A stretch of 64,000 nucleotides of DNA from an uncultured Bacilli bacterium (GTDB lineage Bacteria > Bacillota_I > Bacilli_A > RF39 > UBA660), in the NCBI GenBank assembly GCA_944359055.1, contig CALVSO010000001.1, positions 37,460-101,459 of the forward strand, read 5' to 3'. Positions within the stretch are counted from its first letter, which is position 1; each line of letters starts with the position of its first letter. The position numbers were made by a program, and so were the translations under genes. This document shows, one piece after another, positions 3,826 through 27,086 of the stretch. Under the pieces are notes generated by a model. The model had not been told where the DNA came from. It saw only the letters and a list, made by a program, of their open reading frames with translations, and searched no databases.

Positions 3826-3835
3826 GGAGGGTATA

Positions 3836-5311
3836 ATGAAGAAAATTAGTTTAATATTATTTAGTATATTTTTAAGTTTTTTAATCGTAAATAAAGTAGA
3901 TGCTTCTAGTGCAACTATAAGTGTTTACTCTTCTAAATCAACAGTTATAGTAGGTGATACAGTAACAGTTACTGTTAAAGTATCATCTTCTGCTAATTTA
4001 GGATCTTGGAATTTTGATGTAGTTCCTTCTTCTAACTTAAGCTTTGTAAGTTCTAGCTTTGGTGGATTATATGTTGCTGAATCAGCTTCAAGTTTAAATA
4101 CAAAATCAAAAACATATACATTTAAATTTAAAGCTAAGTCATCTGGAACTGGATCTGTTAGTATTAAAAATGCTCGTGTTTTAGACATGGATACTGAAAA
4201 AAATATGAGTGTTTCAGCTGGTAAAACTAGTTTCAAAATGATGACGCAATCTGAATTAGAGTCTACTTATAGTAAAAATAATAATTTATCTAGTTTAAAA
4301 ATTGAAGGATATGATTTAGAATTTAATAAAGACACTTTAGAATATAATATTGATTTAAATTTTGATGTTAAGGAAATTAATATTATAGCTGAAGCTGAAG
4401 ATAGTAAATCTTCTATTGATGGAGATGGCAAGGTAACTTTATCACAAGGAATGAATCAAATTAAAATAGTTGTTACTGCTCAAAATGGTAGTACAAAAAC
4501 ATATATTATAAATGCTAATGTTAAAGAGATGAATCCTATTGAAGTAACTATAGATGGTAATACATATACAGTTGTTAGACAACAAGAATTTTTACCTGTT
4601 GCCAGTATGTATTATCAAGGAACAACTGTCAAAATAAATGAAGAAGATGTTCCTGCTTATTATAATCAAACAGTAGATTTTACTTTAGTTGGATTGAAAG
4701 ATAGTAATGGTAACGTTAATTTATATTTATATAAAGATGGTAATTACACTTTATACAATGAATCTAATTTTAATTCTTTAGGTATTTATATTTTAGATAT
4801 GGATGAGTCATTAATTCCTAAGGGATATGTGGAAACTAAAATAAATATTGGTGATAAAGAAGTGGTTGCTTATTCTAAAGATGGTTATGAATATCCATTA
4901 ATATATGGATTAAATTTAGAAAATGGAAGTAAAAATTTATATAAATATGATGCTAAAGAAAATACATTACAAAGATACGAAAATGTTACCATAAATACAG
5001 ATATTTATTTTAATGCATTAATTGGTATGTTTGGATTCATAATAGTTTCATATATTATATTTATAGTATTATTATCAAATAAAAATAAACAACAAAAAAA
5101 CTTTTTAGATAAAACAATGCGTATGAATATTATTGATGTAAATGATAATGCTTTAGAAAATGTTTTAGGTGTTAAAACTAAAAAAGAATTAAAAAAAGAA
5201 AAAAAATTAGCTAAAAAATTAGCTAAAAAGAATAAAGTTGTTGTTGAAAATATAGAAAATAATCCAAACGAAGAAAATGTAAAAGGCGAAGAAGAAATGG
5301 CTAGTTTGTAG
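3836..5311 (+). CDS. Membrane-anchored surface protein with an N-terminal cohesin-like domain, a cadherin-like domain, a C-terminal TM anchor and a basic tail
   Basis: Signal peptide, then ISVYSSKSTVIVGDTVTVTVKVSSSANLGSWNFDVV...KFKAKSSGTGSVSI, which resembles the cohesin beta-sandwich signature. LSSLKIEGYDLEFNKDTLEYNIDL...VVTAQNGSTKTYIINANV is cadherin-like. TM helix FGFIIVSYIIFIVLLS followed by a KKEKKLAKKLAKK tail. RBS AAGGAGGG. Confidence 0.6.
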   Translation: MKKISLILFSIFLSFLIVNKVDASSATISVYSSKSTVIVGDTVTVTVKVSSSANLGSWNFDVVPSSNLSFVSSSFGGLYVAESASSLNTKSKTYTFKFKAKSSGTGSVSIKNARVLDMDTEKNMSVSAGKTSFKMMTQSELESTYSKNNNLSSLKIEGYDLEFNKDTLEYNIDLNFDVKEINIIAEAEDSKSSIDGDGKVTLSQGMNQIKIVVTAQNGSTKTYIINANVKEMNPIEVTIDGNTYTVVRQQEFLPVASMYYQGTTVKINEEDVPAYYNQTVDFTLVGLKDSNGNVNLYLYKDGNYTLYNESNFNSLGIYILDMDESLIPKGYVETKINIGDKEVVAYSKDGYEYPLIYGLNLENGSKNLYKYDAKENTLQRYENVTINTDIYFNALIGMFGFIIVSYIIFIVLLSNKNKQQKNFLDKTMRMNIIDVNDNALENVLGVKTKKELKKEKKLAKKLAKKNKVVVENIENNPNEENVKGEEEMASL

Positions 5312-5354
5312 CCATTTAACTTAAGATATAAAATTTGATATATAATTAAAGAAT

Positions 5355-5386
5355 AAAAAAGTTGCTATAAAAAAGCAATTTTTTTT
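5355..5386 (+). terminator. Rho-independent terminator after the cohesin-like gene
   Basis: AAAAAAGTTGC-tataaaaaa-GCAATTTTTTTT hairpin with T-run. Confidence 0.5.
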
Positions 5387-5436
5387 AAAATTTTGCAGGA
5401 AATCACTATACTTTTGGCGAATAAAACTAATAGGAG

Positions 5437-6296
5437 GTGATTTATATAAAAAAATTCTACACTGCAAAACATGAGCCAGTTTTCATGTATGCTGCTGTTA
5501 AAAAAGAATTTCTAATTGCTATTTTAGAACCAATCATAGATAAAAAAATTGAAGAATTAGAAATACTAAATCCTAATTTAGTTCAAGATTATTTTAAATT
5601 AAGAGGCCAAAGATTAGATTTATTAGTAAAAACAAAAAATGAAATAATTAATGTAGAATTAAATACTAATTATAATGAAGAAATAAAAATTAGAAATCTT
5701 CATTATGTATTTAAATTAGCGAGCGAAAATACGGAAAGAGGAAATAAGTATAAAGTAGGCCATTCGATAGTTCAAGTAAATTTAAACTTTTATAATAGTA
5801 AATATGAAAAAAGTATCTATACATTATATGATAAAACAAATAAAATAGAGTTAACAGATTATATAAAATATATAATGTAGGTATAGACAAATACATAAAA
5901 AACTATTATAATAATGATAAGAAGTTTACCAAAGGTGAAGAAGCATTAATCATGTTAGATTTAGATAAAAAAGAATTAGAAGAATTATCGGAAAAGAGTG
6001 ATATAGTGGATAAGTATAAAAAAGAAGTAATAAAAGCAAATAATGATCAATTTGTAGTAGATTGGATAAGTCGTGAAGAAGAGCAAAAACAATATGAAGA
6101 AGTAATGTATGAGAAAGGTATCACTCAAGGTGTCATTCAAGGAAAACAACAAGGAATAAAAGAAGGAATTTCCCAAGGCATTGAAAAAGCAAATATGGAA
6201 AATGCAAAAAAAATGTTAGAATTAAATATGGATTTAGAGACAATAAGCAAAATAACCAATTTAACTATAGAGCAAATTAAAAATTTAAATTTATAA
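5437..6296 (+). pseudogene. Rpn-family (YhgA-like, PD-(D/E)XK) recombination-promoting nuclease/putative transposase, disrupted into two ORFs (5437-5880 and 5952-6296)
   Basis: The first ORF has an N-terminal-like region (HEPVFMYAAVKKEFLIAILEPII) and a nuclease core (LDLLVKTKNEIINVELNTNYNEEIKIRNLHYVFKL). The second ORF carries the characteristic C-terminal (EKGIxQG)n repeat EKGITQGVIQGKQQGIKEGISQGIEKA and a LETISKITNLTIEQIKNL tail. An in-frame stop and a gap separate the two parts. Confidence 0.55.
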
Positions 6297-6317
6297 TTGG
6301 TTATGCTAATAAAATAT

Positions 6318-6362
6318 TAAAAAAGTACTTTTAAAAATTTTATTAAAAAAGTACTTTTTTTA
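6318..6362. terminator. Bidirectional terminator region between convergent genes (two copies of the palindromic AAAAAGTACTTTT hairpin)
   Basis: aaaaagtacttttaaaaattttattaaaaaagtactttttt. Each copy is self-complementary around GTAC and flanked by A and T runs. Confidence 0.5.
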
Positions 6363-6404
6363 AATATTATTCAAATTTCACTTTATATCAGAAATTCTTG
6401 AATT

Positions 6405-7475
6405 TTAGTTTTTTCTTTTTTTAAATAAATTAAGAGAAAATTTACTTTTATCATGTTCAATAATTATATTAGTTTTTAAAACAAATATTAAAACTAATAA
6501 CATTAAAATTCCATATAATAGATATCCTAATTTATTGTCTATTAATACATAAACAATAGAAGCTAGAGCAAATAAAGAATCAATAAAACATATTATTAAT
6601 ACTGTTTTTCTATGGGAAAAATTCATGTTTAGTAGTTGATGATGAATATGAAATTTATCTGGTTTAGTAATACTTTCATTTTTTAAGTATCTTCTTATTA
6701 TAGCAAATATAGTATCTAGAAAAGGAATTGCTAATATCGTAAATGGAATAATAATAGAAGTCATTGTAACGTTTTTAAATCCTAGAAGTGCAATAACACT
6801 TATTATAAAACCTAAAAACATAGAACCAGTATCGCCCATAAATATTGAAGCAGGATTAGCATTATATTTTAAGAATCCTAAACAAGACCCTAACATAATA
6901 AAACATAATATAAAATCTAATCCTTGTGTATGTTTAAAAATAGCAATACTTCCAACTGTTAAGAAAAATATACTACTAATACCTGTTGCTAGTCCATCTA
7001 AACCATCAATTAAATTCATGCAATTTATAAATGCAAGAATAAAAATTATTGTTACTAAATAAGATAAAATTCCAAAATCAATGTATATTCCAAATGCACT
7101 CATACTTGATAATAATATTTTTCCATAAAACACTACAACTAATGTTGCTGCAATTTGACCACATAATTTTACTTTGGCACTTAATGGCTTTATATCATCG
7201 ATTATACCAGTAATTATAATAATAAAACTTCCTATTAAAATTGAATTCATAACATCAGTATGTTTTCCAAATACCATATAACCAAATAAGAATCCGGCAT
7301 AAATAGCTAAGCCACCTAATCGTGGTATTGGAACTTTATGAACCTTTCTTTCATTTGGAATATCCAATGCTCCAACATGATTTGCTATTTTCTTTACAAT
7401 AGGTACCATTAAATATACAAATAGGTAACAGGTTAATGTTACTAATAATACTTGAATAAAAATTTCGTTTGACAT
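6405..7475 (-). CDS. tagO: Undecaprenyl-phosphate N-acetylhexosamine-1-phosphate transferase (TagO/WecA/MraY family), probable initiating transferase
   Basis: About 11 TM segments. Motifs IIDDIKPLSA, NCMNLIDGLDGLATGIS and FMGDTGSMFLGF are typical of MraY/WecA-family polyprenyl-phosphate HexNAc-1-P transferases. Confidence 0.85.
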   Translation of the reverse strand: MSNEIFIQVLLVTLTCYLFVYLMVPIVKKIANHVGALDIPNERKVHKVPIPRLGGLAIYAGFLFGYMVFGKHTDVMNSILIGSFIIIITGIIDDIKPLSAKVKLCGQIAATLVVVFYGKILLSSMSAFGIYIDFGILSYLVTIIFILAFINCMNLIDGLDGLATGISSIFFLTVGSIAIFKHTQGLDFILCFIMLGSCLGFLKYNANPASIFMGDTGSMFLGFIISVIALLGFKNVTMTSIIIPFTILAIPFLDTIFAIIRRYLKNESITKPDKFHIHHQLLNMNFSHRKTVLIICFIDSLFALASIVYVLIDNKLGYLLYGILMLLVLIFVLKTNIIIEHDKSKFSLNLFKKRKN

Positions 7476-7652
7476 CTTAACACCTCTATTAATAATTTTA
7501 TCAAATTTTTACATTTTAGTCTATATAATTGTTAAATGTTAATTATAATTAAAAAAAATAATTAAAATTAGTAAAATAATGTAAATAGTCTTTTAATATT
7601 AAAGAAAATATTATATAATTAGATTAATGGAATATTAGTGAGGAGAGATGTA

Positions 7653-8615
7653 ATGAAGACATATTTAATTACTGGAGGAGCTGGTTTTATTGGCTCAACT
7701 CTAGCAGATAAATTATTAGAAATGGGTAACAGAGTGGTTGTAATTGATAATTTTTGTGATTTTTACGATCCAAAATATAAAGAAAAGAACATAAAAGAAA
7801 GTTTAAAAAATAAAAATTATTCTTTGTATAGAGTGGATATTAGAAATTATTTAGAATTAGAAAAAGCTTTTAAAGAAAATAATGTTGATTGTATAGTCCA
7901 TTTGGCAGCTATGGCAGGTGTTCGCCCTTCAATAGAAAATCCTATTTTATATCAAGAAGTAAATGGATTAGGCACACAAAATATTTTAGAAATAGCTAAA
8001 AAATATTCAGTAAAAAATTTAGTTATGGCTTCTTCAAGTAGTGTTTATGGTAATTGCGATAAGGTTCCTTTTAAGGAAGATTTTATAGTTGATTATGCTA
8101 TAAGTCCATATGCTGCAACAAAAAAAAGTAATGAAGTTATGGCACATGTTTATCATAAATTATTTAACATGAATATAATCATGCTAAGATTTTTTACAGT
8201 TTATGGTCCAAAACAAAGACCGGATTTAGCTATTAATAAATTTACGAGATTAATGTTAGAAGATAAAGAAATACCAATGTATGGTGATGGTTCTACATCT
8301 AGAGATTATACTTATGTTGATGATATAGTTGATGGAATTATAAAATCAACAGAGTATGTTTTCAATAATGATAATGTTTATGAAATAATTAATATTGGTA
8401 ATTCAACTCCAATTTCATTAAAAGAGATGATTGACATTATTGGTGAGGTTTTAGGAGTAACACCTAAAATTGAACAATTACCTATGCAGCCAGGTGATGT
8501 TGAACGAACTTATGCTGATATAAGTAAAGCAAAAGAACTATTGAATTATGCCCCTAAAACTTCATTTAAAGAAGGAATTAAAAAATTTGTTGAATGGCAT
8601 TTAAAACAAAAATAG
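7653..8615 (+). CDS. NAD-dependent sugar-nucleotide epimerase (UDP-glucuronate 4-epimerase-like, SDR family)
   Basis: TGGAGFIGS Rossmann motif, YAATK catalytic Y-x3-K, and overall GalE/Cap1J-like layout. ATG at 7653 lies 6 nt after GAGGAGAG. The track ORF begins at GTG 7638. Confidence 0.8.
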   Translation: MKTYLITGGAGFIGSTLADKLLEMGNRVVVIDNFCDFYDPKYKEKNIKESLKNKNYSLYRVDIRNYLELEKAFKENNVDCIVHLAAMAGVRPSIENPILYQEVNGLGTQNILEIAKKYSVKNLVMASSSSVYGNCDKVPFKEDFIVDYAISPYAATKKSNEVMAHVYHKLFNMNIIMLRFFTVYGPKQRPDLAINKFTRLMLEDKEIPMYGDGSTSRDYTYVDDIVDGIIKSTEYVFNNDNVYEIINIGNSTPISLKEMIDIIGEVLGVTPKIEQLPMQPGDVERTYADISKAKELLNYAPKTSFKEGIKKFVEWHLKQK

Positions 8616-8627
8616 ACGGAGATTATT

Positions 8628-9620
8628 ATGAAATTAGGAATATTCAAAGAATTTAATAATAAGCATCAAAATTATATTGATGCATGTAACGAATTAAAAG
8701 TTGATTACGAAATTATTGATATATATGCTGACAATTGGATTGAAATTATTAAGAATAGTGATTGTGATGGTTTTTTGGTTCGTCCAAGTTGTGATAAACA
8801 AGATTGGAAGAATATGTATGATGAAAGATTATATTTTATTACAAAATATTTAAACAAAAAAATATATCCATCATATGATGAATGTTATATTTATGAAAGC
8901 AAAAACAGAATGTTTTATTGGCTTGAAGCAAATGGTTTTCCACATGTAGAAACTCATGTTTTTTATGATAAGAATGAAGCATTAAATTTTTTAAACAAAT
9001 GTGAGTATCCATTAGTATACAAGCCAAATTTGGGTAGTTCTTGTGTTGGCATCAAATTTGTTAATAATTATAAAGAAGGGAAAAAACTTGTTAATAAGGC
9101 CTTTCCTTATAAAGGGCTTGGAATGGGTATGATAAAAAAATATAAAACAAGATATAAATTTATAAATCGCCCAGCATTAGATGATAGACAATATAATTAT
9201 ATTATGTTTCAAAAAAAAGAAGATGTAGTTGCAGAGTGGCGAATAATAAAAATAGGAAATTCATTCTTTGGACACCAAAAATTAATTGATAAAAAAGGTT
9301 TTCATAGTGGTGCAGGAATTGGTGCTATTTGGCGAAAACCACCAAAAAAACTATTAGATTTATGCGATAGTATTTGTTCAAAAGGTAATTTTTATTCTAT
9401 GGCTTGTGATATATTTGAAACAAAAGAAAAAAAATATTATGTTAATGAATTACAGACAACCTTTGGATCATATGCTGAATCACAGATGATTATTGACAAT
9501 AAACCAGGAAGATATATTAAAAAGAATAATGATTATATTTTTCAAGAAGGTATTTTTAATAGACATGGAAGCTATTTGTTAAGAGTCGAACATTTTGTTG
9601 AAATTTTGAAAAACAAGTAG
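8628..9620 (+). CDS. ATP-grasp fold protein (RimK-like carboxylate-amine ligase candidate)
   Basis: Central region PLVYKPNLGSSCVGIKFV...AEWRIIKIGNSFFGHQK resembles the ATP-grasp nucleotide-binding core. Assignment rests on weak motif-level similarity only. Confidence 0.45.
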   Translation: MKLGIFKEFNNKHQNYIDACNELKVDYEIIDIYADNWIEIIKNSDCDGFLVRPSCDKQDWKNMYDERLYFITKYLNKKIYPSYDECYIYESKNRMFYWLEANGFPHVETHVFYDKNEALNFLNKCEYPLVYKPNLGSSCVGIKFVNNYKEGKKLVNKAFPYKGLGMGMIKKYKTRYKFINRPALDDRQYNYIMFQKKEDVVAEWRIIKIGNSFFGHQKLIDKKGFHSGAGIGAIWRKPPKKLLDLCDSICSKGNFYSMACDIFETKEKKYYVNELQTTFGSYAESQMIIDNKPGRYIKKNNDYIFQEGIFNRHGSYLLRVEHFVEILKNK

Positions 9621-9640
9621 ATAAATTGTGTTATTGGTAG

Positions 9641-9830
9641 CCTACAAATTGATGATGCAGAGACTGTTATAGCAGATATTTTAAATAATATTTATAAAGA
9701 TTTTGATATAATTGCTTTGCTAATTGAAAAAACTTATGTAGATATAAGTAAAAAAACTATTGAATTATGCCTCTAAAACTTCATTTAAAGAATAAATTAA
9801 AAAATTCGTTGAGAGACTTTAAAAAAAATA
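9641..9830 (+). pseudogene. Fossil chimeric junction: about 100 bp homologous to the 5' end of the GT4 gene at 10846-10950, fused to about 90 bp homologous to the 3' end of the epimerase gene at 8518-8605
   Basis: ttattggtagcctacaaattgatgatgcagagactgttatagcagatattttaaataatatttataaagattttgatataa aligns at about 90% with 10847-10930. cttatgtagatataagtaaaaaaactattgaattatgcctctaaaacttcatttaaagaataaattaaaaaattcgttga aligns at about 85% with 8518-8600. The junction shows microhomology (gaaaaac/ttatg). Confidence 0.7.
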
Positions 9831-9852
9831 ATGAAAGAGGATAGATATTTAA

Positions 9853-10767
9853 ATGTTAACAAAAAAAATAATTAAAATAATAAAAAAACCTAAAAAAATA
9901 ATAATTTTTTTGGCCTCAAAAGGAATTATTCCGTATAATGATGAAAAATATTTAAAATATGTATATAAAGAAAAAACTGGTGATGATTTAAATTTGGATA
10001 ACCCTAAAAACTTTACAGAGAAGCTTCAATGGTTAAAGTTATTTGATAGGAATCCATTATATACAAAATTGGTTGATAAATATGAAGTTAGAGACTATGT
10101 AAAAAAATTAATAGGAGAAAAATATTTAATACCATGTTTAGGAGTTTATGATAATGTTAATGAAATAGATTTTGAACAATTGCCTAATCAATTTGTTTTA
10201 AAAACAACACATGATTCTGGAACTGTTGTTATATGTAAAAATAAAAAAAATTTTGACATATCAAAAGCAAAAAAGTTTTTAAGTAAAAGATTAAAAAGAA
10301 AATATTTTTATTTGTGGAGAGAATGGCCTTATAAAGATGTAAAACCTCGTATAATTGCAGAAAAATATATGGAAGATAAAATATATAAAGGTATTAATGA
10401 TTATAAATTTTATTGTTTTAATGGAGAACCTAAGATTATGTTTATAATATTAGAAAGGAATATAAAGCCTAAGATGTCCTTTTATGATATGAACTTTAAT
10501 AAATTAGATATGCACCAAACATTTCCTGATTATAATAAAAAAATAGAAAAACCTAAAAATTTTGAAAAAATGATTCAGTTCTGTAAAATTTTAGGTAAAA
10601 AATTTTCTCATGTAAGGATTGATTTTTATGAATGTAATGATCAACTTTATTTTGGAGAATTAACTTTTTTTGATAGTGCAGGTTTTGATAAATTTTCACC
10701 AGATGTGTATAATGATATTTTAGGTGAATGGATAGATTTAGAAAGAGTTAATAAATATAATCATTAA
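9853..10767 (+). CDS. TupA-like ATP-grasp protein (teichuronopeptide-type amino acid ligase family)
   Basis: The hallmark N-terminal block NPKNFTEKLQWLKLFDRNPLYTKLVDKYEVRDYV and downstream LPNQFVLKTTHDSGTVVICK...WPYKDVKPRIIAEKYM match the ATPgrasp_TupA family. Confidence 0.75.
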   Translation: MLTKKIIKIIKKPKKIIIFLASKGIIPYNDEKYLKYVYKEKTGDDLNLDNPKNFTEKLQWLKLFDRNPLYTKLVDKYEVRDYVKKLIGEKYLIPCLGVYDNVNEIDFEQLPNQFVLKTTHDSGTVVICKNKKNFDISKAKKFLSKRLKRKYFYLWREWPYKDVKPRIIAEKYMEDKIYKGINDYKFYCFNGEPKIMFIILERNIKPKMSFYDMNFNKLDMHQTFPDYNKKIEKPKNFEKMIQFCKILGKKFSHVRIDFYECNDQLYFGELTFFDSAGFDKFSPDVYNDILGEWIDLERVNKYNH

Positions 10768-10811: not shown

Positions 10812-11927
10812 TTGGTGTTAATATTGAAAAAAATTTTATTTGTTATTGGTAGCCTACAAATAGGTGGGGCGGAGACTGTTATGGTAGATATTTTAAATAA
10901 TATTTATAAAGATTTTGATATAACAGTTTTATTAATTGAAAAACGTGGAGAGTTGTTAAAAAGTATATCGCCTAATATAAAATTGAAATATTTAACTAAA
11001 GGTGATGAATTTTGTAAATCTTCATTAGAAAAATTTTATAATAAAGTTAAACGAAGTTTAATTTATAGATATTTTGGTAAAAGCAAATTGTATGTAAATT
11101 ATGTATATAAAAAAATTTTAAAAACTAAATATGATACGGAAATTGCTTTTTTAGCTGGGTTACCTTCTAATCTTGTTAAAATGAGTCCAAATAATAGTCA
11201 AAAAATAGTTTGGATACATGCTAGTGTTACTAAAGATGATGTGACAACATATGAAAAATATTCAACTATTTGTAATTCTTTTGATAAGATAATAGGTGTT
11301 AGTGAATCATGTATTAATATTTTTGAAGAAACGTTTCCTGAAAGTAAAGGAAAAATTGAACTAATTCATAATTATGTTGATATAAATAAAATTATAAATA
11401 AATCAAATTTGGAAAACATTTCATTTGATTCAGATAAATTAAACATTTTATCAATTGGAAGAATTGTATCAGAAAAAGGTTTTGATAGAATTATAAATAT
11501 TGCCAAAAAATATGAAAATAAAATAAATTTTTATATTATAGGTGATGGACCATTAAAAGATAAGTTGATGCATAGTTTGGTAGAACAAAAAATTAATAAT
11601 GTTATTTTTTTAGGACTAAAGAAAAATCCTTATCCATATATAAAAAAATGTGATGCTTTTTTACTCAGTTCACGTAGTGAAGCTTATCCGACTGTTGTAA
11701 TTGAGGCAATGGTTTTAAATAAAAGTATTATAGCAACAGATGTTCCAGGGGTTAGTGAAATTTTGAAAGAATATTTAGATAAATTAATTATTCCTAATTT
11801 AGATAATAGTATTGATGAAGGTTTAAATATATGGTTAAGCAGAAAAAATAATAATAAAAATTTAACTAATAATTTTAAAAAAATAAACGATGACAATTTA
11901 AGAAAAGTAAAAAAATTATTTGAGTAG
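10812..11927 (+). CDS. Glycosyltransferase family 4 (GT-B, group 1)
   Basis: N-terminal GSLQIGGAETVMVDIL and C-terminal EAYPTVVIEAMVLNKSIIATDVPGVSEIL (the E-x7-E region). The likely start is the in-frame TTG at 10824 (MKKILFVIG). Confidence 0.85.
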   Translation: MVLILKKILFVIGSLQIGGAETVMVDILNNIYKDFDITVLLIEKRGELLKSISPNIKLKYLTKGDEFCKSSLEKFYNKVKRSLIYRYFGKSKLYVNYVYKKILKTKYDTEIAFLAGLPSNLVKMSPNNSQKIVWIHASVTKDDVTTYEKYSTICNSFDKIIGVSESCINIFEETFPESKGKIELIHNYVDINKIINKSNLENISFDSDKLNILSIGRIVSEKGFDRIINIAKKYENKINFYIIGDGPLKDKLMHSLVEQKINNVIFLGLKKNPYPYIKKCDAFLLSSRSEAYPTVVIEAMVLNKSIIATDVPGVSEILKEYLDKLIIPNLDNSIDEGLNIWLSRKNNNKNLTNNFKKINDDNLRKVKKLFE

Positions 11928-11937
11928 GGTGATTAAC

Positions 11938-14900
11938 ATGAAAACAGATAAATTTACAAAATTATTAATTTTATTTATTATATTACAACCTTTATATGAT
12001 ATTTTTATTTATTTTCTAAATAATGTAATTAATTTTGATTTACCATTCATATCATTTGTTCGTCCATTAATTTCAATTGGAATTTATTTATATTTATTGT
12101 TTAGCTATAAAATTTCAACTAAAGAAAAATTAATTTCATTTATCTATTTATCTATTTATGGAATTTATTGTATCTTACACTTAATAAATATAAGAAATAA
12201 TTTCTTTGAACTATCTTATGGCAATATGTTTAATGAAATAAGATATTTGTGTAATTATGGATATTTTATAATACAATTGATTAATTTTTATTTTATTTTT
12301 AAAATTGTTAATAAAGAAGATAGAAAAAAAATCTTAATTTCTTTCACTCTAGCTATTGGTTTAATGACATTAATGTATTTTATTTCGATTATTACTAACA
12401 CATCGCCATTAACGTATATTTTTTCTAAAGGAAAGGAAGGATGGCGTGGTTGGTCTGTTTCAGCACACTATATAGGTCATTCAATTATTTATGCTTTACC
12501 TGTCATAATTTACACGATTTTTGAAAAAAAATATATAAATAAATGGTATAAATATTTGTTTTTTACTTGCATTTTGATTCCACCTTTTTATTTAGTAGGA
12601 ACAAAAACACCTTTATTTATGACTTTATTTATAGTCCTATTTTATACATTAATGAAAATAATTGTTTCAATAAAAGATAAAAAAATAAGTAAGGATACAA
12701 TATATTTTATAACAATTTCTTTAGTTTTAATATCAACATTCAATTTAACTTACGGATATGCCAATTTTAAAAATCAAATAAGCATTTCTGAAGGTGATGA
12801 AACTGGCGATATCAATTTAATAGAAGATAATATAGATGATTATGAAGATTCAACAATGCAAGAAAATCCTGATTTATCTACTTTTGAAAATAGAATGGTA
12901 TATACATTATATAAATATAGAGATATAAAGAGTTCAGTTTTTGATAATAGAACAATTCAAAAAACATTAAATAAATATTTGTATTCTATAAGCCCTATTA
13001 AGGATAAAATATTTGGTTATGGTCATGATACAATGCCTAATTGTAATTGGGTGGAAACTGATATTTTAACTATATTTTATTGTTATGGATTGGTTGGATT
13101 TTTATTAATAATAGTTTTACCATTAGGTTATATTGCAATCAATGGTTTAAAATGTTTATTTAATATTAAAAAAATGTCAATTTCTAAATTTATTTTAGGT
13201 TTTGGATTTGGTTTATCTTTGGCAATACTTTACTTTGTTGGATATACTATGCAATTTGCTCAAACTGTATTTTATTTAATAATTCTTTTGATTATTGCAA
13301 ATGATTTATTTATTAAAATAACAAATAAAAAAATTAAAAGAGATTATTTATTTATGATAAATGATTTAAGTATAGGTGGAGCAGAAGTTGGCATGGTTGA
13401 TGTTGTTAATGAATTATCAAAAAATGGAAATAAGGTAGATATTGTATTATTACGAAAAAGAGGACCTTTATTAGAAAAATTGGATAAAAACATCAATGTT
13501 TATGAAATTTTAAATTCTGATTATAACAAAATAAAGAAAAAAATTTATCATATATTTTATATGATAGGTGGACCTTTTATAAAATATGTCTACAAAAAAA
13601 CTATAAAAGCTGATTATAATACTGAAGTTGCTTATTTAGAAGGATATCCATCAGTTTTTATTGCATCTAGTAATAATAAAAACTCAACTAAAATAGCGTC
13701 AATAAGAGTAGGCTTAAAAAATCATAAGTTAAAAGCTCATAAGATTCCTTGGGGAGAACAGCTTGTTAAAAATTCTTATAAAAAAATGGATTATATTTAT
13801 ACAGTTTCTGATTTGACTACACAAGAATTTTTAGAAAAATATCCTTTTTGTGAAGGAAAAACAAGTACTATTTATACTTATTTTAATGTTGATGATATTG
13901 TAAAAAAAGCAAAAGAAAAAATAGATTATAAATTTGATCAAAATATGATTAATTTTTTGGCAGTTGGTCGTTTCAATACTCAAAAAGGATATGATAGATT
14001 AATAGAAGCTTTTTCAAAAGTAGTTCAAAAAAATCCAAATGTTTTGTTACATTTTTTAGGAAAGTATGATACTGAAGAAGGAAAAAAAGTTATTGATTTA
14101 ATTGAAAAAAATAATATTAAAGATAAGGTAATACTTCACGGAATAAAATCTAATCCTTATCCATATATGAAACAATGTGACTGTTTGATTAGTTCTTCTT
14201 TATATGAGGGATATCCAAGAGTTATTAATGAAGCTTTATGCTTGAAAAAAATTTGTATAGGAACAAATGTTACTGGTACAAAAGAAGCGTTAAAAAATGG
14301 TAAAATGGGTCTTTTAGTAGATGATTCAATTTCAGGATTGGAAAAAGGAATGCTAGATTTTATAAATGATAAAAATATTTATGATAAATATAAAGAAGAA
14401 ATCGAAAAATTTGATGGTAACAAAGAAAGTTATTTTAAAGGTTTAGAAAAAATCAGCAACAAAAAGAAGAAAATGATTATATATATGCCAAAGTTATCTT
14501 TTGGAGGCATGGAAAAAGCTTTAGTTAATTTAATTAATTATGCTAAGTTAAATGAAAAATATGATTTAACGTTATATTTAGTATATAAGGGTGATATGAA
14601 TTATTTAGAATTATTACCTAAAAATATTAAAATAATTATTGCATGTCCAAATAAATGGAATTTATTTGGAAAAGTAACAGCATTTATAAAATTAATTTTT
14701 AGATATATTTATCAAATATTTGTTAAATATGATATTGCTATTTCATATTCTTATCAGCATCCAATTCTAACTTCTTTAACTAGATTAAGTAGTGAAAATA
14801 GTATAGTTTACATTCATTCAAATTTAATTGATGGAATGAATAAAAAATTACTGCAAAAAAGAATAAAAAAATGTAAATATGAAAAATTTAAAAAAATTAT

Positions 14901-15546
14901 TTGTGTTTCAGAAGATGCAAAGAAAGCATTAGTAGGATTAATTCATAGAAAAGATAATATTTATGTATTAAATAATGTAATAGATGGAGATAAAATATTA
15001 TTACAATCTAATGAAAAAATAGATGATTTTAAATTTGAAAATAATACTATATATTTTATTAATATATGTCGTCATATTGAAGAATCTAAAAAACTTATAA
15101 GAATAATTGAGGCTACTAATAAATTGAACAAAGAAGGATATAAATTTGAAGTTCTTTTTGTAGGTGATGGGGAAGATCATCAGTTGTATATTGATAAAAT
15201 AAAAGAATTAAACATTAACAATATTCATTTGTTAGGAAAAAAGAAAAATCCTTATAAATATTTAAATAAATCGTCAGCCCTCTTATTATCTTCAATAAGA
15301 GAAGGATATCCTGTTGTGTTTGTTGAGTCTCTTGTACTTAATATTCCAATTGTAACAACTAATGTTTCTGATGCAAAAAAAGATATTAAAAATAAATATG
15401 GAATAGTAGTTTCAAATAATGATGAAGCAATTTATGATGGTATGAAAAAATTTATTAATGAAGGATTTAAAATTAAATATAATTTTGATTATATTCAGTA
15501 TAATCAAAAAATTTATTATGAGACTATAAAAATATATGAGGAGTGA
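11938..15546 (+). CDS. Tri-domain fusion: Wzy/O-antigen-polymerase-like polytopic membrane domain (about aa 1-460), then GT4 glycosyltransferase, then a second GT4 glycosyltransferase
   Basis: The N-terminal third has 10 or more TM helices and a large hydrophilic loop (ISEGDETGDINLIEDNIDDYEDSTMQENPD...NCNWVETDILTIFYCYGLVGFLLI) typical of Wzy/EpsG polymerases. GT4 domain 1: DLSIGGAEVGMVDVVNEL...EGYPRVINEALCLKKICIGTNVTGTKEAL. GT4 domain 2: MIIYMPKLSFGGMEKALVNL...EGYPVVFVESLVLNIPIVTTNVSDAKKDI. The 1196-codon ORF (1202 from TTG 11920) is continuous. ATG at 11938 follows RBS AGGGTGA. Confidence 0.7.
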   Translation: MKTDKFTKLLILFIILQPLYDIFIYFLNNVINFDLPFISFVRPLISIGIYLYLLFSYKISTKEKLISFIYLSIYGIYCILHLINIRNNFFELSYGNMFNEIRYLCNYGYFIIQLINFYFIFKIVNKEDRKKILISFTLAIGLMTLMYFISIITNTSPLTYIFSKGKEGWRGWSVSAHYIGHSIIYALPVIIYTIFEKKYINKWYKYLFFTCILIPPFYLVGTKTPLFMTLFIVLFYTLMKIIVSIKDKKISKDTIYFITISLVLISTFNLTYGYANFKNQISISEGDETGDINLIEDNIDDYEDSTMQENPDLSTFENRMVYTLYKYRDIKSSVFDNRTIQKTLNKYLYSISPIKDKIFGYGHDTMPNCNWVETDILTIFYCYGLVGFLLIIVLPLGYIAINGLKCLFNIKKMSISKFILGFGFGLSLAILYFVGYTMQFAQTVFYLIILLIIANDLFIKITNKKIKRDYLFMINDLSIGGAEVGMVDVVNELSKNGNKVDIVLLRKRGPLLEKLDKNINVYEILNSDYNKIKKKIYHIFYMIGGPFIKYVYKKTIKADYNTEVAYLEGYPSVFIASSNNKNSTKIASIRVGLKNHKLKAHKIPWGEQLVKNSYKKMDYIYTVSDLTTQEFLEKYPFCEGKTSTIYTYFNVDDIVKKAKEKIDYKFDQNMINFLAVGRFNTQKGYDRLIEAFSKVVQKNPNVLLHFLGKYDTEEGKKVIDLIEKNNIKDKVILHGIKSNPYPYMKQCDCLISSSLYEGYPRVINEALCLKKICIGTNVTGTKEALKNGKMGLLVDDSISGLEKGMLDFINDKNIYDKYKEEIEKFDGNKESYFKGLEKISNKKKKMIIYMPKLSFGGMEKALVNLINYAKLNEKYDLTLYLVYKGDMNYLELLPKNIKIIIACPNKWNLFGKVTAFIKLIFRYIYQIFVKYDIAISYSYQHPILTSLTRLSSENSIVYIHSNLIDGMNKKLLQKRIKKCKYEKFKKIICVSEDAKKALVGLIHRKDNIYVLNNVIDGDKILLQSNEKIDDFKFENNTIYFINICRHIEESKKLIRIIEATNKLNKEGYKFEVLFVGDGEDHQLYIDKIKELNINNIHLLGKKKNPYKYLNKSSALLLSSIREGYPVVFVESLVLNIPIVTTNVSDAKKDIKNKYGIVVSNNDEAIYDGMKKFINEGFKIKYNFDYIQYNQKIYYETIKIYEE

Positions 15547-16346: not shown

Positions 16347-16811
16347 ATGAAACGAGTTATGTTTATAAGTAGTGTTGGAGGTCATTTAACACAGCTTTTA
16401 GAACTTAAAACAATTTTTAAAGATTATAATTATGTTTTAGTTACTGAAAAAAATGACGTTACTAAAGACATGAAAAAAAAATACAAAATGGAATATTTAA
16501 TTTATGGTTCTCGAGAATATTTATTTAAATATGTATTTATCTTTTTATTTAATATTTTTAAATCATTTTATTTGTTTTTTAAATATCGTCCTAATGTTAT
16601 TGTTACAACGGGAACTCATACAGCGGTTCCAATGTGCTATATTGGTAGATTATTTGGTAAAAAAGTAATATTTATCGAAAGTTATGCAAAAAGAACAAGT
16701 CCTACGTTATCAGGTAGGCTTGTTTATCCAATTGCTAGTACATTTATAGTACAATGGGAAACTATGTTGGAATTTTATCCTAAAGCAAAATATTTTGGAG
16801 GTATTTATTGA
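16347..16811 (+). CDS. Alg14-like glycosyltransferase membrane-anchor subunit (Cps14F/EpsF-like)
   Basis: MFISSVGGHLTQLLELK...PNVIVTTGTHTAVPMCYIGRLFGKKVIFIESYAKRTSPTLSGRL matches the Alg14-like family. Confidence 0.75.
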   Translation: MKRVMFISSVGGHLTQLLELKTIFKDYNYVLVTEKNDVTKDMKKKYKMEYLIYGSREYLFKYVFIFLFNIFKSFYLFFKYRPNVIVTTGTHTAVPMCYIGRLFGKKVIFIESYAKRTSPTLSGRLVYPIASTFIVQWETMLEFYPKAKYFGGIY

Positions 16812-17275
16812 TGATATTAGTAACGTTAGGCACACAAAAACAATCTTTTAATAGATTATTAGATATGATTGAAAAAAGTAATATAAATGATAAAATAATT
16901 GTTCAAGCTGGATATACGAAATATAAAAGTAAAAAAATGAAAATGCTTGATTTTGTTGATTATCAAGAAATGGATAAATTAATAAAGCAAGCTGATTTAA
17001 TAATAACTCATGGTGGTACCGGTTCAATTGTAACAGCAATAAAGCAAGGAAAAAAAGTAATTGCCTGTCCTAGATTAAAAAAGTATGGTGAGCATGTAGA
17101 TGATCACCAAAAACAAATTGTCGATATTTTTTCTGAAGTAGGATATATATTAAAACTAGATGAAAATGACAATTTGGATGAATTAGTACAAAAAATTAAA
17201 ACGAAAAAAATGATTCCATTTAAATCAAATACAACTAATTTTATTAATAATTTAAAAAAGGAAATAGATTGTTAG
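16808..17275 (+). CDS. Alg13-like (GT28 C-terminal domain) glycosyltransferase catalytic subunit (Cps14G/EpsE-like)
   Basis: MILVTLGTQKQSFNRLL...ADLIITHGGTGSIVTAIKQGKKVIACPR matches the Alg13/MurG C-terminal domain. The gene overlaps the preceding Alg14-like gene by 4 nt. Confidence 0.75.
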   Translation: MMILVTLGTQKQSFNRLLDMIEKSNINDKIIVQAGYTKYKSKKMKMLDFVDYQEMDKLIKQADLIITHGGTGSIVTAIKQGKKVIACPRLKKYGEHVDDHQKQIVDIFSEVGYILKLDENDNLDELVQKIKTKKMIPFKSNTTNFINNLKKEIDC

Positions 17276-25763: not shown

Positions 25764-27086
25764 ATGAAAATAGCAGTAGCAGGTACAGGATATGTAGGTT
25801 TAGTCACAGGAGTTGCTTTAGCACATATTGGCCATAATGTTAAGTGTGTTGATGTAGATGAAAAGAAAATTGAATTGATGAAAAGTGGTAAAAGTCCGAT
25901 ATATGAAAAAGATTTAGAAGAATTAATGTTAAAAAACAAAAAAAGATTAGATTATACGACAGATTATAAAGAAGCATATAAAGATGCAGAAATAATAATT
26001 ATTGGTGTTGGAACACCAGAAAGAGCAGACGGCTCAGCTAATTTAGATTATGTATATAGTGTATGTGAGCAAATAGCTGAAGTTTTAGAAAATGATTGTG
26101 TGGTTGTTGTAAAATCAACTGTCCCAATTGGAACTAATGATAATGTTGAAAAATATTTAAAGGAACATGTTAAAAACAATTTAAATATCTATGTTGCAAG
26201 CAATCCAGAGTTCTTAGCTCAAGGAACTGCGGTTAGAGATACATTATATGCTTCTAGAATAGTTATTGGTACAGAAGATGATAAAGCAAAAGAAATACTA
26301 ACAAAAATGTATGAACCATTGACAAAAGATCCATATAATGTACCATTTTTAGCTACAAATAGAAGAAGTGCTGAAATGATAAAATATGCGTCTAATGATT
26401 TTTTAGCTTTAAAAATTTCTTATGTTAATGAAATTGCAAATTTATGTGAAAAATTAGGCGCTAATATAGAAGACGTTACTAAAGGTATGGGTTTAGATAG
26501 TAGAATAGGTAATAAATTTTTAAATGCCGGAATTGGTTATGGAGGAAGTTGTTTCCCAAAAGATACAAAAGCTTTACATTGGCTAAGTGTTAGTGAAGGT
26601 GTTGAGTTAAAAACAGTAAAGGCATGTATTGAAGTTAATAAGGCTCAAAAAATTAAATTATATGAAAAATTACATAATGATATTCCTGATTTAAAAGGTA
26701 AAACAATAGCAGTTTTGGGATTAACATTTAAACCTGGAACAGATGATCTTCGTGAAGCACCTTCAATAGATAACATTGAATTATTGCTTGATGCTGGGGC
26801 TAATATAAAAGCATATGACCCAGTAGGAATTGAAAATTTTAAAAAGAAAATAGCTTATAAACTAGAACAAGATGGAATAACTGGTACTATAAATTATTTT
26901 AATAATATAGATGATGCTATTGAAAATGCAGATGCTACTTTAATAATGACAGAGTGGTCTGACATAAAAAATTATGATATTAATAAATATAAAAAATTAA
27001 TGAAAAATCCTTTAATCTATGATGGAAGAAATTGTTATTCTTTAAGTGCTATGAATGGACTTACATATAAATCAATTGGTAGATAA
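25764..27086 (+). CDS. ugd: UDP-glucose 6-dehydrogenase
   Basis: MKIAVAGTGYVGLV...GYGGSCFPKDTKAL (catalytic Cys) ...LGLTFKPGTDDLREAPS. Confidence 0.9.
   Translation: MKIAVAGTGYVGLVTGVALAHIGHNVKCVDVDEKKIELMKSGKSPIYEKDLEELMLKNKKRLDYTTDYKEAYKDAEIIIIGVGTPERADGSANLDYVYSVCEQIAEVLENDCVVVVKSTVPIGTNDNVEKYLKEHVKNNLNIYVASNPEFLAQGTAVRDTLYASRIVIGTEDDKAKEILTKMYEPLTKDPYNVPFLATNRRSAEMIKYASNDFLALKISYVNEIANLCEKLGANIEDVTKGMGLDSRIGNKFLNAGIGYGGSCFPKDTKALHWLSVSEGVELKTVKACIEVNKAQKIKLYEKLHNDIPDLKGKTIAVLGLTFKPGTDDLREAPSIDNIELLLDAGANIKAYDPVGIENFKKKIAYKLEQDGITGTINYFNNIDDAIENADATLIMTEWSDIKNYDINKYKKLMKNPLIYDGRNCYSLSAMNGLTYKSIGR

What the first reader, a model, noticed from the sequence alone, without database searches (positions are those of the whole stretch)
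8628..10767. Pair of ATP-grasp genes (generic ATP-grasp and TupA-like) wedged between the epimerase and the first GT4
The TupA-like protein has the diagnostic NPKNFTEKLQWLKLFDRNPLYTKL block of the ATPgrasp_TupA family, named after the Bacillus teichuronopeptide ligase. The upstream 330-aa protein has an ATP-grasp-like core by weak motif similarity only. Their position next to UDP-uronic-acid-forming enzymes suggests carboxyl amidation of a uronic acid. The fossil junction directly between them (9641-9830) indicates this segment was reshaped by recombination.
Basis: partly seen in the sequence, partly recalled or inferred. Interest (0 to 1): 0.55.

Follow-up and report, generated by a model that had tools for sequence, protein, structure and literature searches.

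The report
Two alternative sugar-decorating ligases fused together
Two unrelated ATP-using ligase genes that normally replace one another at one position of a cell-surface polysaccharide gene cluster sit side by side here because of an old recombination event; one belongs to a known family that attaches amines to sugar acids, and the other belongs to a small, unnamed family that probably does a similar job.

Summary
The ORF at 9853-10767 is a clear TupA-like ATP-grasp protein (PF14305, 234 bits). The ORF at 8628-9620 ("AG1") is a true three-domain ATP-grasp ligase: its model has pLDDT 88.8 and matches ArgX/LysX/RimK/Ddl. It fits no curated family.

The spacer 9625-9830 is a real fossil. It is the first ~110 nt of the downstream GT4 gene fused to the last ~107 nt of the upstream epimerase gene.

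Close relatives carry the two parental forms in otherwise collinear loci: epimerase-AG1-GT4 (L005, L001) and epimerase-TupA-GT4 (L097, L007, L096). L005 and L097 are 97% identical up to the epimerase stop codon, then differ. From the junction onward the window is 96-98% identical to L097; upstream it is 79-91% identical. So the pair arose by a one-sided illegitimate join between two alleles of one slot.

The best reading is that both enzymes amidate the C6 carboxylate of a glucuronic or galacturonic acid residue in the growing glycan. The precedent for TupA-like enzymes is C. jejuni Cj1438C.

Elsewhere, AG1 homologues are often paired with carboxyethyl-ornithine-synthase-like or octopine-dehydrogenase-like genes. 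This suggests an unrecognised family of glycan amino-acid ligases. Substrates remain inferred. Interest is moderate.

The parts
6405..7475 (-). WecA/MraY-family initiating phosphoglycosyl transferase. It marks the left edge of the polysaccharide locus.
   Evidence: PF00953 at 131 bits; TIGR02380 (WecA) at 160 bits, below its cut-off.
7638..8615 (+). SDR epimerase, most likely a UDP-glucuronate 4-epimerase. It is the resident, left-arm copy.
   Evidence: Pfam Epimerase/GDP_Man_Dehyd. Best PDB sequence hits are 5u4q (267 bits) and 6zl6/6zla (203 bits), ahead of WbgU and WbpP (168 bits). That 6zl6/6zla is the B. cereus UDP-GlcA 4-epimerase comes from my own knowledge.
8628..9620 (+). AG1: a 330-aa three-domain ATP-grasp carboxylate-amine ligase from an unnamed family. 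It is the proposed glycan amino-acid ligase and belongs to the left-arm allele.
   Evidence: Weak HMM hits only. AF2 pLDDT 88.8; Foldseek matches ArgX/LysX/RimK/Ddl at E = 1e-16 to 1e-11. It carries all 38 family-invariant residues. omega is 0.05-0.07.
9625..9731 (+). Fossil of the first ~110 nt of the GT4 gene that once followed AG1. It starts at the old TTG start codon, lacks 13 nt compared with L005, and is out of frame.
   Evidence: 88-89% identical to 10838-10943. Translates as VIGSLQIDDAETVIADILNNIYKDFDIIALLIEK. Comparison with the end of L005.
9724..9731 (.). Junction microhomology (TTGAAAAA) shared by the GT4 fragment and the epimerase fragment. This is the illegitimate-recombination breakpoint.
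   Evidence: The overlapping alignment ends are. The L097 alignment to the window starts exactly at 9724.
9724..9830 (+). Fossil of the last ~107 nt of the epimerase gene that preceded the TupA-like gene in the donor allele. It contains indels and an in-frame stop.
   Evidence: 83-88% identical to 8500-8614. Aligned to the intact L097 epimerase 3' end, it shows 14 substitutions and 4 indels.
9831..9852 (+). Native spacer and ribosome-binding site of the TupA-like gene (AATGAAAGAGGATAGATATTTAA). It came in with the right arm.
   Evidence: The same sequence follows the epimerase stop codon in L097.
9853..10767 (+). TupA-like ATP-grasp protein, short 304-aa single-domain form. It is the proposed ATP-dependent uronic-acid amidoligase and belongs to the right-arm allele.
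   Evidence: PF14305 at 234 bits. AF2 pLDDT 86.8; Foldseek matches ArgX/Ddl/LysX/RimK at E ~1e-6. Family-invariant residues are present. omega is 0.12-0.29.
10812..11927 (+). Intact GT4 glycosyltransferase, the right-arm copy. The true start is probably the TTG near 10824.
   Evidence: PF00534 and PF13692. 98.4% amino-acid identity to the L097 GT4.
16347..17275 (+). PssD/PssE (Alg14/Alg13-like) two-gene glycosyltransferase, related to the beta-1,4-glucuronosyltransferase WelK.
   Evidence: NF041549 at 188 bits and NF041548 at 138 bits, both above cut-off. WelK scores 88-109 bits, below its cut-off.
25764..27086 (+). UDP-glucose 6-dehydrogenase (Ugd/TuaD-like), the source of UDP-glucuronate. 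It marks the right edge of the locus.
   Evidence: All three UDPG_MGDP_dh Pfam domains. TuaD at 504 bits (below its 700-bit cut-off) and TIGR03026 at 454 bits.

Best explanation
Both genes encode stand-alone ATP-grasp carboxylate-amine ligases that decorate the surface polysaccharide made by this locus.

The proposed mechanism has three steps. (1) Ugd and the adjacent epimerase supply UDP-GlcA/UDP-GalA. (2) A glycosyltransferase places the uronic acid on the lipid-linked repeat unit. (3) The ligase phosphorylates the C6 carboxylate with ATP, and an amine (an amino acid or an amino alcohol) attacks to give a uronamide, before the next sugar is added.

In this lineage the slot between the epimerase and the first GT4 is an allelic cassette. 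It holds either AG1 or the TupA-like gene, which are unrelated beyond the shared ATP-grasp fold. They most likely attach different amines, which would make the slot a serotype switch.

The window carries both genes because an AG1-type chromosome took up more than 11 kb of a TupA-type locus from a close relative. The incoming DNA was anchored by homology downstream. Its upstream end joined illegitimately at a 5-8 nt microhomology inside the resident GT4 gene. That left the GT4-5'/epimerase-3' fossil between the two ligase genes.

Shown: fold and family, the fossil, the two parental alleles, the mosaic identity pattern, and purifying selection. Inferred: the substrates, the timing of amidation, and whether both enzymes are active in this strain.
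For: Family and fold:
- The TupA-like protein matches PF14305 at 234 bits.
- The AG1 model matches ArgX/LysX/RimK/Ddl; the TupA model matches ArgX/Ddl/LysX/RimK.
- All family-invariant residues are present in both window proteins.

Precedent:
- The TupA-like domain Cj1438C uses ATP to amidate the GlcA carboxylate of the growing C. jejuni capsule, and the next transferase needs the amide (PMC11800379 and PMC12409886).

Locus context:
- The epimerase is closest, among chains with a known activity, to 6zl6/6zla.
- The locus also encodes Ugd and a PssD/E glycosyltransferase distantly related (below cut-off) to the glucuronosyltransferase WelK.
- In L001, AG1 directly follows a nucleotide-sugar dehydrogenase.

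Allelic slot:
- L001 and L005 carry AG1 only. L007, L095, L096 and L097 carry TupA only in the same slot, and L008/L009 show epimerase-TupA-glycosyltransferase on short contigs. Where the contigs are long enough (L001, L007, L096, L097) the rest of the locus is collinear.
- L005 and L097 are 97.3% identical up to the epimerase stop codon, then diverge.
- The AG1 and TupA profiles are unrelated (hhalign probability 0.7%).

Recombination:
- The fossil fragments and microhomology are shown.
- L097 aligns to the window from exactly 9724 onward at 96.3-97.9% identity, but at only 79-91% upstream.
- dS against L097 is 0.02-0.17 on the right arm, versus 0.31-0.75 on the left arm.
- The junction is present in independent assemblies: L090, L091 (four samples) and L006 (98.6% identical).

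Selection and expression:
- omega is 0.05-0.07 for AG1 and 0.12-0.29 for TupA.
- No terminator-like site lies on the + strand between the two genes.

AG1 family context:
- It always sits in polysaccharide loci. In 29 of 80 loci a carboxyethyl-ornithine-synthase-like (AlaDh_PNT) or octopine-dehydrogenase-like gene lies nearby, usually adjacent.
- Providencia stuartii CP044076 carries octopine-DH-like, AG1, wzx, glycosyltransferases, epimerase and ugd in one locus.
- E. coli plasmid AP027746 carries wecA, AG1, 'N(5)-(carboxyethyl)ornithine synthase', further genes, epimerase and a nucleotide-sugar dehydrogenase.
- This matches the known uronic-acid amides of N-epsilon-(1-carboxyethyl)lysine in Providencia O-antigens (PMC10609480).
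- One family member is fused to a glycosyltransferase-like domain, as Cj1438 is.
Against: - No biochemical data exist for either window protein, or for any AG1-family member that I could find.
- Only 9 of 80 AG1-family loci show a Ugd-family gene within 10 kb (5 of 9 in the octopine-DH subset). The family-wide link to uronic acids is therefore weak.
- Opine-type amino acids are also known N-linked to amino sugars, for example alanopine on Qui4N in P. alcalifaciens O35 (PMC10609480). The opposite polarity is therefore chemically possible, and this locus also makes a 4-amino-4,6-dideoxyhexose.
- No amine-supply gene or tailoring gene lies next to either ligase in the window.
- A TupA-like protein with a non-glycan role has been reported: CfmP (PMC13419641).
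- I did not compare the window protein directly with the Cj1438C sequence.
- After the merger AG1 may be redundant. The low omega mostly reflects evolution before the event.
Confidence: 0.55

Rival explanations
1. Reverse polarity, or side-chain building. AG1, and possibly the TupA-like enzyme, would activate the carboxylate of a free amino acid. It would then couple it to an amino sugar such as the 4-amino-4,6-dideoxyhexose made by RmlA/RmlB/DesI-like, or to another amino acid. The product would be an N-aminoacyl or peptide or opine decoration rather than a uronamide.
For: - The locus makes a dTDP-4-amino-4,6-dideoxyhexose.
- Opine-type and other amino acids N-linked to Qui4N occur in known O-antigens (PMC10609480).
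- 16 of 80 AG1 loci carry a DegT-type aminotransferase, against 9 of 80 with a Ugd-family gene.
- In L050 and L051, AG1 directly follows rmlA.
Against: - In this lineage the N-acyl slot lies elsewhere. It holds a hexapeptide acetyltransferase in L001, L007 and L096, and WbqC/unknown/third ATP-grasp in the window, directly before the aminotransferase.
- The AG1/TupA slot sits directly after the uronate epimerase, or after a sugar dehydrogenase in L001.
- The P. stuartii and E. coli plasmid loci have ugd and an epimerase but no aminotransferase.
- The characterised TupA-like domain activates the sugar carboxylate.
Confidence: 0.2
2. Passenger or redundancy. The two enzymes do the same reaction with the same amine (non-orthologous replacement). 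In the window one of them, most likely AG1, the left-over of the resident allele, contributes nothing and is simply not yet degraded.
For: - They occupy the same slot in otherwise collinear loci.
- The imported right arm brings a complete TupA-type gene set.
- I had no independent post-merger copy of AG1 with which to test selection after the event. L090 is identical to the window, and L006 and L091 lack AG1.
Against: - AG1 is intact, with all invariant residues, while the flanking fossil fragments have picked up indels, a 13-nt deletion and stop codons.
- Some loci naturally carry both families (L010), and others carry two AG1 paralogues (L016, L021).
- The two families have different N-terminal domains, which argues for different substrates.
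Confidence: 0.2
3. Assembly artefact. The side-by-side arrangement would be a chimeric metagenome contig joining an AG1-type strain and a TupA-type strain.
For: - The window is 100% identical to a metagenome scaffold (L090).
- Both parental alleles circulate in related populations.
- Short-read contigs L005, L006 and L091 break in or next to the repeated segment.
Against: - A chimeric join would need a long shared k-mer. Here the join has only 5-8 nt of microhomology between two non-homologous genes.
- The fragments carry their own indels and substitutions.
- The same GT4'/epimerase' junction was assembled independently in L090, in L091 (four samples), and in L006, which is 98.6% identical and therefore a different strain.
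Confidence: 0.03
4. Non-glycan target. The TupA-like enzyme would modify a protein or a small molecule, as proposed for Klebsiella CfmP, and its place in the locus would be incidental.
For: CfmP, a TupA-like protein, acts independently of surface polysaccharides (PMC13419641).
Against: - CfmP lies outside polysaccharide loci and has a divergent N-terminal domain.
- The window gene sits inside an apparent operon, in the conserved order epimerase-TupA-GT4, across relatives down to 67% identity.
Confidence: 0.05

Closest known systems
Cj1438 C-terminal domain (Cj1438C) of Campylobacter jejuni NCTC 11168, the ATP-dependent glucuronate amidoligase of the HS:2 capsule
   Same: [quoted passage not shown] It sits in a surface-polysaccharide locus that also encodes a UDP-glucose dehydrogenase. 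It acts on the uronic-acid carboxylate of the growing chain, and the next glycosyltransferase needs the amide (PMC11800379, PMC12409886).
   Different: - Cj1438C is the third domain of a 776-aa GT2 fusion. The window protein is a stand-alone 304-aa enzyme.
- Its amines are ethanolamine phosphate and serinol phosphate, supplied by dedicated PLP enzymes and followed by a phosphatase. No such genes are seen next to the window gene.
- I did not measure direct sequence identity.
WemR of Proteus mirabilis and the NCBI 'ATP-grasp fold amidoligase family' proteins of O-antigen and capsule loci
   Same: Stand-alone PF14305 proteins in polysaccharide loci, predicted to add amino acids to the polymer (PMC13419641; Vibrio alginolyticus orf2 in PMC11382117).
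   Different: Those are predictions or phage-resistance phenotypes only. They come from Gram-negative O-antigen and capsule systems, whereas the window comes from a 24% G+C uncultured organism.
LysX / ArgX / RimK (ATP-grasp ligases that add an amino acid to the C-terminal carboxylate of a carrier protein or of ribosomal protein S6)
   Same: These are the best structural matches of AG1 (Foldseek E = 1e-16 to 1e-11). They share its three-domain architecture and the same chemistry: a macromolecule-bound carboxylate plus the amine of an amino acid.
   Different: - Sequence identity is only 12-18%.
- NCBIfam scores are 28 bits against cut-offs of 143-276.
- The genomic context is polysaccharide synthesis, not lysine/arginine synthesis or ribosome modification.
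Homology-facilitated illegitimate recombination and capsule-locus cassette exchange in naturally transformable bacteria (from my own knowledge of the Streptococcus pneumoniae and Acinetobacter literature)
   Same: There is a one-sided homologous anchor, a join at a few bases of microhomology, retention of truncated gene fragments at the junction, and a mosaic identity profile across a serotype locus.
   Different: Here it was seen in metagenome assemblies of an uncultured low-G+C organism. The uptake mechanism is unknown.

Membership tests
Pfam PF14305 ATPgrasp_TupA (protein at 9853-10767) | Full-length match to the family HMM above the gathering score | tested here: met
   E = 1.7e-69, 234.4 bits against a cut-off of 25; residues 56-294 cover profile positions 1-240 of 241.
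Pfam PF14305 ATPgrasp_TupA (protein at 9853-10767) | Conserved N-terminal block (P..EKLQWLK..Y) and core residues (K117, H120, S122, G123, REWPYK 156-161, E170, D183, K185, R202, R255, D257, E269, T271) | tested here: met
   All 48 invariant columns of a 26-sequence alignment are present in the window protein.
Pfam PF14305 ATPgrasp_TupA (protein at 9853-10767) | ATP-grasp fold | tested here: met
   AF2 model with pLDDT 86.8. Foldseek matches ArgX, Ddl, LysX and RimK at E = 5e-7 to 2e-5. The N-terminal domain is all-helical.
Cj1438C-type uronic-acid amidoligase (function) | ATP-dependent amide formation at C6 of a glucuronate or galacturonate residue | not testable with these tools
   This needs an enzyme assay. 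Only context supports it: the epimerase, ugd and a PssD/E transferase distantly related to WelK.
Cj1438C-type uronic-acid amidoligase (function) | Direct sequence or structure similarity to Cj1438 residues 445-776 | not tested
The link rests on shared Pfam/fold assignment in PMC11800379.
ATP-grasp superfamily (AG1, 8628-9620) | Three-domain ATP-grasp fold with a pre-ATP-grasp Rossmann-like N-terminal domain | tested here: met
   AF2 pLDDT 88.8, pTM 0.87. There is a beta-alpha-beta N-terminal domain. 532 PDB chains match at E <= 1e-3, led by ArgX, LysX, Ddl, synapsin and RimK.
ATP-grasp superfamily (AG1, 8628-9620) | Conserved nucleotide- and metal-binding residues | tested here: inconclusive
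   K132 (in the PLV.KP motif), E203-W204-R205, D261, E264 and N273-E274 are invariant in 26 homologues. Their roles are assigned only by analogy; I made no residue-level superposition.
RimK / LysX / Ddl / CPSase curated families (AG1) | Score above the curated family cut-off | tested here: not met
   - TIGR00768 rimK_fam: 28 bits against 143.
- LysX: 28 against 276.
- Ddl: 23 against 246.
- Pfam Dala_Dala_lig_C: 21.7 against 24.
- Only CPSase_L_D2 passes (23.4 against 19.8), and only over a 91-residue stretch.

AG1 is therefore not a member of any of these. It belongs to a discrete family of about 210 clusters at 50% identity.
Homology-facilitated illegitimate recombination scar | Truncated fragments of two non-adjacent genes fused at a microhomology, with both parental arrangements found and a step change in identity at the junction | tested here: met

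The most novel reading that the evidence does not exclude
AG1 would be the founding member of an unrecognised family of glycan amino-acid ligases, spread across Bacteria and some Archaea. Together with an adjacent N5-(carboxyethyl)ornithine-synthase-like or octopine-dehydrogenase-like enzyme, it would build the uronic-acid amides of N-(1-carboxyethyl)-amino acids ('opine' decorations such as carboxyethyl-lysine) long known from Providencia and Proteus O-antigens. I found no genes assigned to these decorations in the papers I could search. In this lineage AG1 and the TupA-like gene would act as a natural serotype switch.
Probability: 0.4. Interest if true: 0.65.

Novelty: new variant of a known kind. 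Interest (0 to 1): 0.45.

Why it matters
Amide-linked amino acids on uronic acids are common antigenic determinants of O-antigens and capsules, for example Lys, Ser, Ala, Thr, Gly and carboxyethyl-lysine (PMC10609480). The only biochemically proven enzyme I could find for this chemistry is the TupA-like domain of C. jejuni.

Here, natural allele exchange places an unrelated, unannotated ATP-grasp family in the same functional slot. This gives a concrete candidate for a second class of glycan amidoligases, and ready test systems in cultivable strains: P. stuartii CP044076 and E. coli plasmid AP027746.

The locus also gives a clean snapshot of how serotype loci diversify, because the junction and both parental alleles were recovered. 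If the function is as proposed, annotation of several hundred 'hypothetical protein' genes in polysaccharide loci could be improved.

Tried and rejected
- **PDB sequence searches.** AG1 and the TupA-like protein gave only marginal or spurious hits. Fold search was needed.
- **NCBIfam.** It has no model for the TupA-like protein.
- **Profile-profile comparison.** Comparing AG1 with TupA found no specific relationship. I therefore dropped the idea that they are diverged paralogues.
- **Source organism.** I tried to identify it through an exact match of the pyruvate-phosphate dikinase. This failed. The genome-contig scan found no AG1 relative above 55% identity.
- **Literature searches.** I looked for genes that attach amino acids or carboxyethyl-lysine to O-antigens. 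I found structures but no assigned ligase apart from TupA-like predictions. The original Cj1438C paper (PMC9619395) is not held.
- **Promoter scan.** It is uninformative in this AT-rich DNA: 42 sites found against 34 expected.
- **Blanket 'AG1 = uronic-acid enzyme' claim.** I checked it against 80 loci and it is not well supported: only 9 of 80 have a Ugd-family gene nearby.
- **Chimeric assembly.** I considered and rejected this. See the rival explanations.
- **Unused tools.** I did not use the third fold search, the third homology search or the RNA tools, because they would not have changed the conclusion.
Full report
**What is there**

The window has about 24% G+C. Positions ~6.4-27.1 kb hold a surface-polysaccharide locus. 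In order it encodes:

- a WecA-like initiating transferase (6405-7475, minus strand);
- an SDR epimerase (7638-8615);
- a 330-aa protein that I call AG1 (8628-9620);
- a 232-bp spacer;
- a 304-aa TupA-like protein (9853-10767);
- a GT4 glycosyltransferase (10812-11927);
- a 1208-aa fusion of an O-antigen-ligase-like domain with two GT4 domains;
- a polysaccharide deacetylase, a PssD/PssE transferase, a GT2 and Wzx;
- a WbqC-like protein, an unknown 315-aa protein and a third ATP-grasp protein;
- a DesI-like aminotransferase, RmlA, RmlB and Ugd.

Both ORFs of the finding are therefore real and are placed as described.

**The two proteins**

The 304-aa protein is an unambiguous PF14305 (ATPgrasp_TupA) member: 234 bits against a cut-off of 25, covering the full-length profile. 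It carries every invariant residue of a 26-sequence family alignment, including the quoted LQWLK block. Its AlphaFold model (pLDDT 86.8) has an ATP-grasp core behind an all-helical N-terminal domain.

AG1 matches curated models only weakly, and PDB sequences only marginally. Its model, however, is confident (pLDDT 88.8). It is a classical three-domain ATP-grasp ligase, closest to ArgX, LysX, RimK and D-Ala-D-Ala ligases at Foldseek E = 1e-16 to 1e-11. All of these make an amide from a carboxylate and an amine.

AG1 belongs to a small, discrete family. Among 1.84 billion representative proteins there are about 210 clusters at 50% identity with E <= 1e-30. Members are annotated as 'hypothetical' or 'ATP-grasp domain-containing'. 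A profile-profile comparison shows that AG1 and the TupA family are not specifically related.

**The fossil**

The spacer is two gene fragments joined head to tail.

- Positions 9625-9731 are the first ~110 nt of a GT4 gene. They are 88-89% identical to 10838-10943 and start at the old TTG start codon. Compared with the intact start seen in L005, 13 nt are deleted.
- Positions 9724-9830 are the last ~107 nt of an epimerase gene. They are 83-88% identical to 8500-8614 and carry indels and an in-frame stop.
- The two pieces overlap in a TTGAA..AA microhomology.
- The last 22 nt before the TupA-like start codon are the gene's native ribosome-binding region. The same sequence follows the epimerase stop codon in L097.

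**Where it came from**

Related contigs supply both parental arrangements.

| Locus | Slot between the upstream gene and GT4 | Relation to the window |
|---|---|---|
| L001 | sugar dehydrogenase-AG1-GT4-fusion-... with no TupA-like gene | AG1 80% identical |
| L007, L095, L096 | epimerase-TupA-GT4-fusion-... with no AG1 | TupA 67% identical (L007) |
| L097 | WecA-epimerase-TupA-GT4-... | fusion protein 97% identical |
| L005 | WecA-epimerase-AG1, then the contig ends | AG1 96% identical |

L097 and L005 are the most telling. They are 97.3% identical to each other right up to the epimerase stop codon. After that, one continues with AG1 and the other with the TupA-like gene. So the slot is an allelic cassette within one lineage.

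The alignment of L097 to the window starts exactly at 9724. It runs for 8.5 kb at 96.3% identity and then 3.1 kb at 97.9%. Upstream DNA is only 79-91% identical. Synonymous divergence tells the same story: dS against L097 is 0.02-0.17 to the right of the junction and 0.31-0.75 to the left.

The simplest history is as follows. An AG1-type chromosome acquired more than 11 kb of a TupA-type locus from a close relative. Homology anchored the incoming DNA downstream. The upstream end joined illegitimately inside the resident GT4 gene.

The junction is not an assembly artefact. It recurs in independent assemblies: L090, L091 (four samples) and L006 (98.6% identical). The join has only 5-8 nt of microhomology, and the fragments carry their own mutations.

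**What the enzymes most likely do**

I found no direct evidence for the substrates, so this section is inference. The strongest lead for the TupA-like protein is the C. jejuni enzyme Cj1438C. It is a TupA-like ATP-grasp domain that uses ATP to amidate the C6 carboxylate of the glucuronic acid at the end of the growing capsule chain, and the next glycosyltransferase requires the amide (PMC11800379, PMC12409886).

The window locus has the matching ingredients:

- Ugd.
- An epimerase that, among PDB chains with a known activity, is closest to 6zl6/6zla. By my recollection this is the Bacillus cereus UDP-glucuronate 4-epimerase. The overall top hit, 5u4q, is labelled a dTDP-glucose 4,6-dehydratase.
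- A PssD/PssE transferase distantly related to the glucuronosyltransferase WelK.

AG1 takes the same position as the TupA-like gene in sister loci. In L001 it directly follows a nucleotide-sugar dehydrogenase.

**The AG1 family elsewhere**

Across 80 loci from other phyla, AG1 homologues always sit among wzx, wzy and glycosyltransferase genes. In 29 loci there is a nearby gene, usually adjacent, of the alanine-dehydrogenase/N5-(carboxyethyl)ornithine-synthase type or the octopine-dehydrogenase type. Two annotated records show this pairing together with a uronic-acid pathway:

- Providencia stuartii CP044076: octopine-DH-like, AG1, wzx, GT4, wzy, epimerase, ugd.
- E. coli plasmid AP027746: wecA, AG1, 'N(5)-(carboxyethyl)ornithine synthase', flippase, glycosyltransferases, wzy, epimerase, nucleotide-sugar dehydrogenase.

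This matches a known decoration, N-epsilon-(1-carboxyethyl)-lysine amide-linked to galacturonic acid in Providencia O-antigens (PMC10609480). Other observations fit an amino acid being ligated and then tailored. Some AG1 proteins are fused to glycosyltransferase-like, methyltransferase or GNAT domains, and CapA/MslH-like genes are frequent neighbours.

**Caveats**

- Only 9 of the 80 loci show a Ugd-family gene within 10 kb.
- Opine-type amino acids are also known N-linked to amino sugars, so the reverse polarity cannot be excluded for the family as a whole.
- In this lineage, however, the N-acyl slot of the 4-amino sugar is a different module. It holds a hexapeptide acetyltransferase in relatives, and WbqC/unknown/third ATP-grasp here.
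- Both genes are under purifying selection (omega 0.05-0.29). They lie in one apparent operon with no terminator-like site between them.
- The data cannot say whether AG1 is still needed after the merger.
- Loci with both families (L010) or with two AG1 paralogues (L016, L021) show that double decoration is plausible.

**Comparison with the known, and verdict**

The TupA-like gene is a new member of a known family.

AG1 is a member of the ATP-grasp superfamily, but it fails the thresholds of every curated family I tested. It is best described as a new variant: an undescribed family that probably carries out glycan amino-acid ligation.

The 'pair' is not a functional unit.

I rate overall interest as moderate (0.45). 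The strongest points are the natural-swap evidence that links an unannotated family to a known decorating activity, the conserved AG1/opine-synthase pairing, and a cleanly reconstructed recombination event. The weakest point is that all substrate assignments remain inferential.

Noticed in passing
window 19810-22770: A WbqC-like gene, an unknown 315-aa gene (no Pfam or NCBIfam hit) and a third ATP-grasp gene (ATPgrasp_Ter/ATP-grasp_3) lie between wzx and the DesI-like aminotransferase. In relatives L001, L007 and L096 this slot instead holds a hexapeptide acetyltransferase. This looks like a second allelic module swap, probably changing the N-acyl group of the 4-amino-4,6-dideoxyhexose.
   Followed up: partly
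window 11920-15546: A 1208-aa fusion of an O-antigen-ligase-like membrane domain (PF13425) with two GT4 glycosyltransferase domains. It is conserved at 68-97% identity in L001, L007, L096 and L097.
   Followed up: partly
window 5319-6403: About 1.1 kb is absent from the otherwise collinear L097 and L005. It carries a truncated or split PD-(D/E)XK 'transposase' ORF (PDDEXK_2; 5437-5880, plus 5952-6296) directly upstream of the recombined locus.
   Followed up: partly
proteins P0160-P0240 (alignment A2): Many TupA-like proteins are 440-470 aa long because the C-terminal half of the domain is duplicated (a second DYKFFCF...RVDFY...GELTFF block). The window protein is the short single-domain form.
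   Followed up: no
L010-L089; P0252, P0254, P0268, P0286: The AG1 family occurs from Bacteroidales, Cloacimonadota, Nitrospira and Verrucomicrobiota to the archaeon Methanogenium. Some members are fused to glycosyltransferase-like, methyltransferase or GNAT domains. 16 of 80 loci carry a CapA/PGA_cap gene with a weak hit to the MslH C-terminal-residue epimerase.
   Followed up: partly
L098 (E. coli L6-21 chromosome, NZ_CP123963.1 758517-763282): An IS-riddled island carries an AG1 homologue next to an 'alanine dehydrogenase' gene. A few kb away lie a 103-aa fragment of a TupA-like 'ATP-grasp fold amidoligase' and a flippase. This is another place where the two families meet.
   Followed up: no
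window 1828-5311: Directly upstream of the locus are a 665-aa protein with SH3 and type I dockerin domains and a 491-aa cadherin-like-domain protein. This flank is only ~79% identical to L097, much more diverged than the locus to the right of the junction.
   Followed up: no
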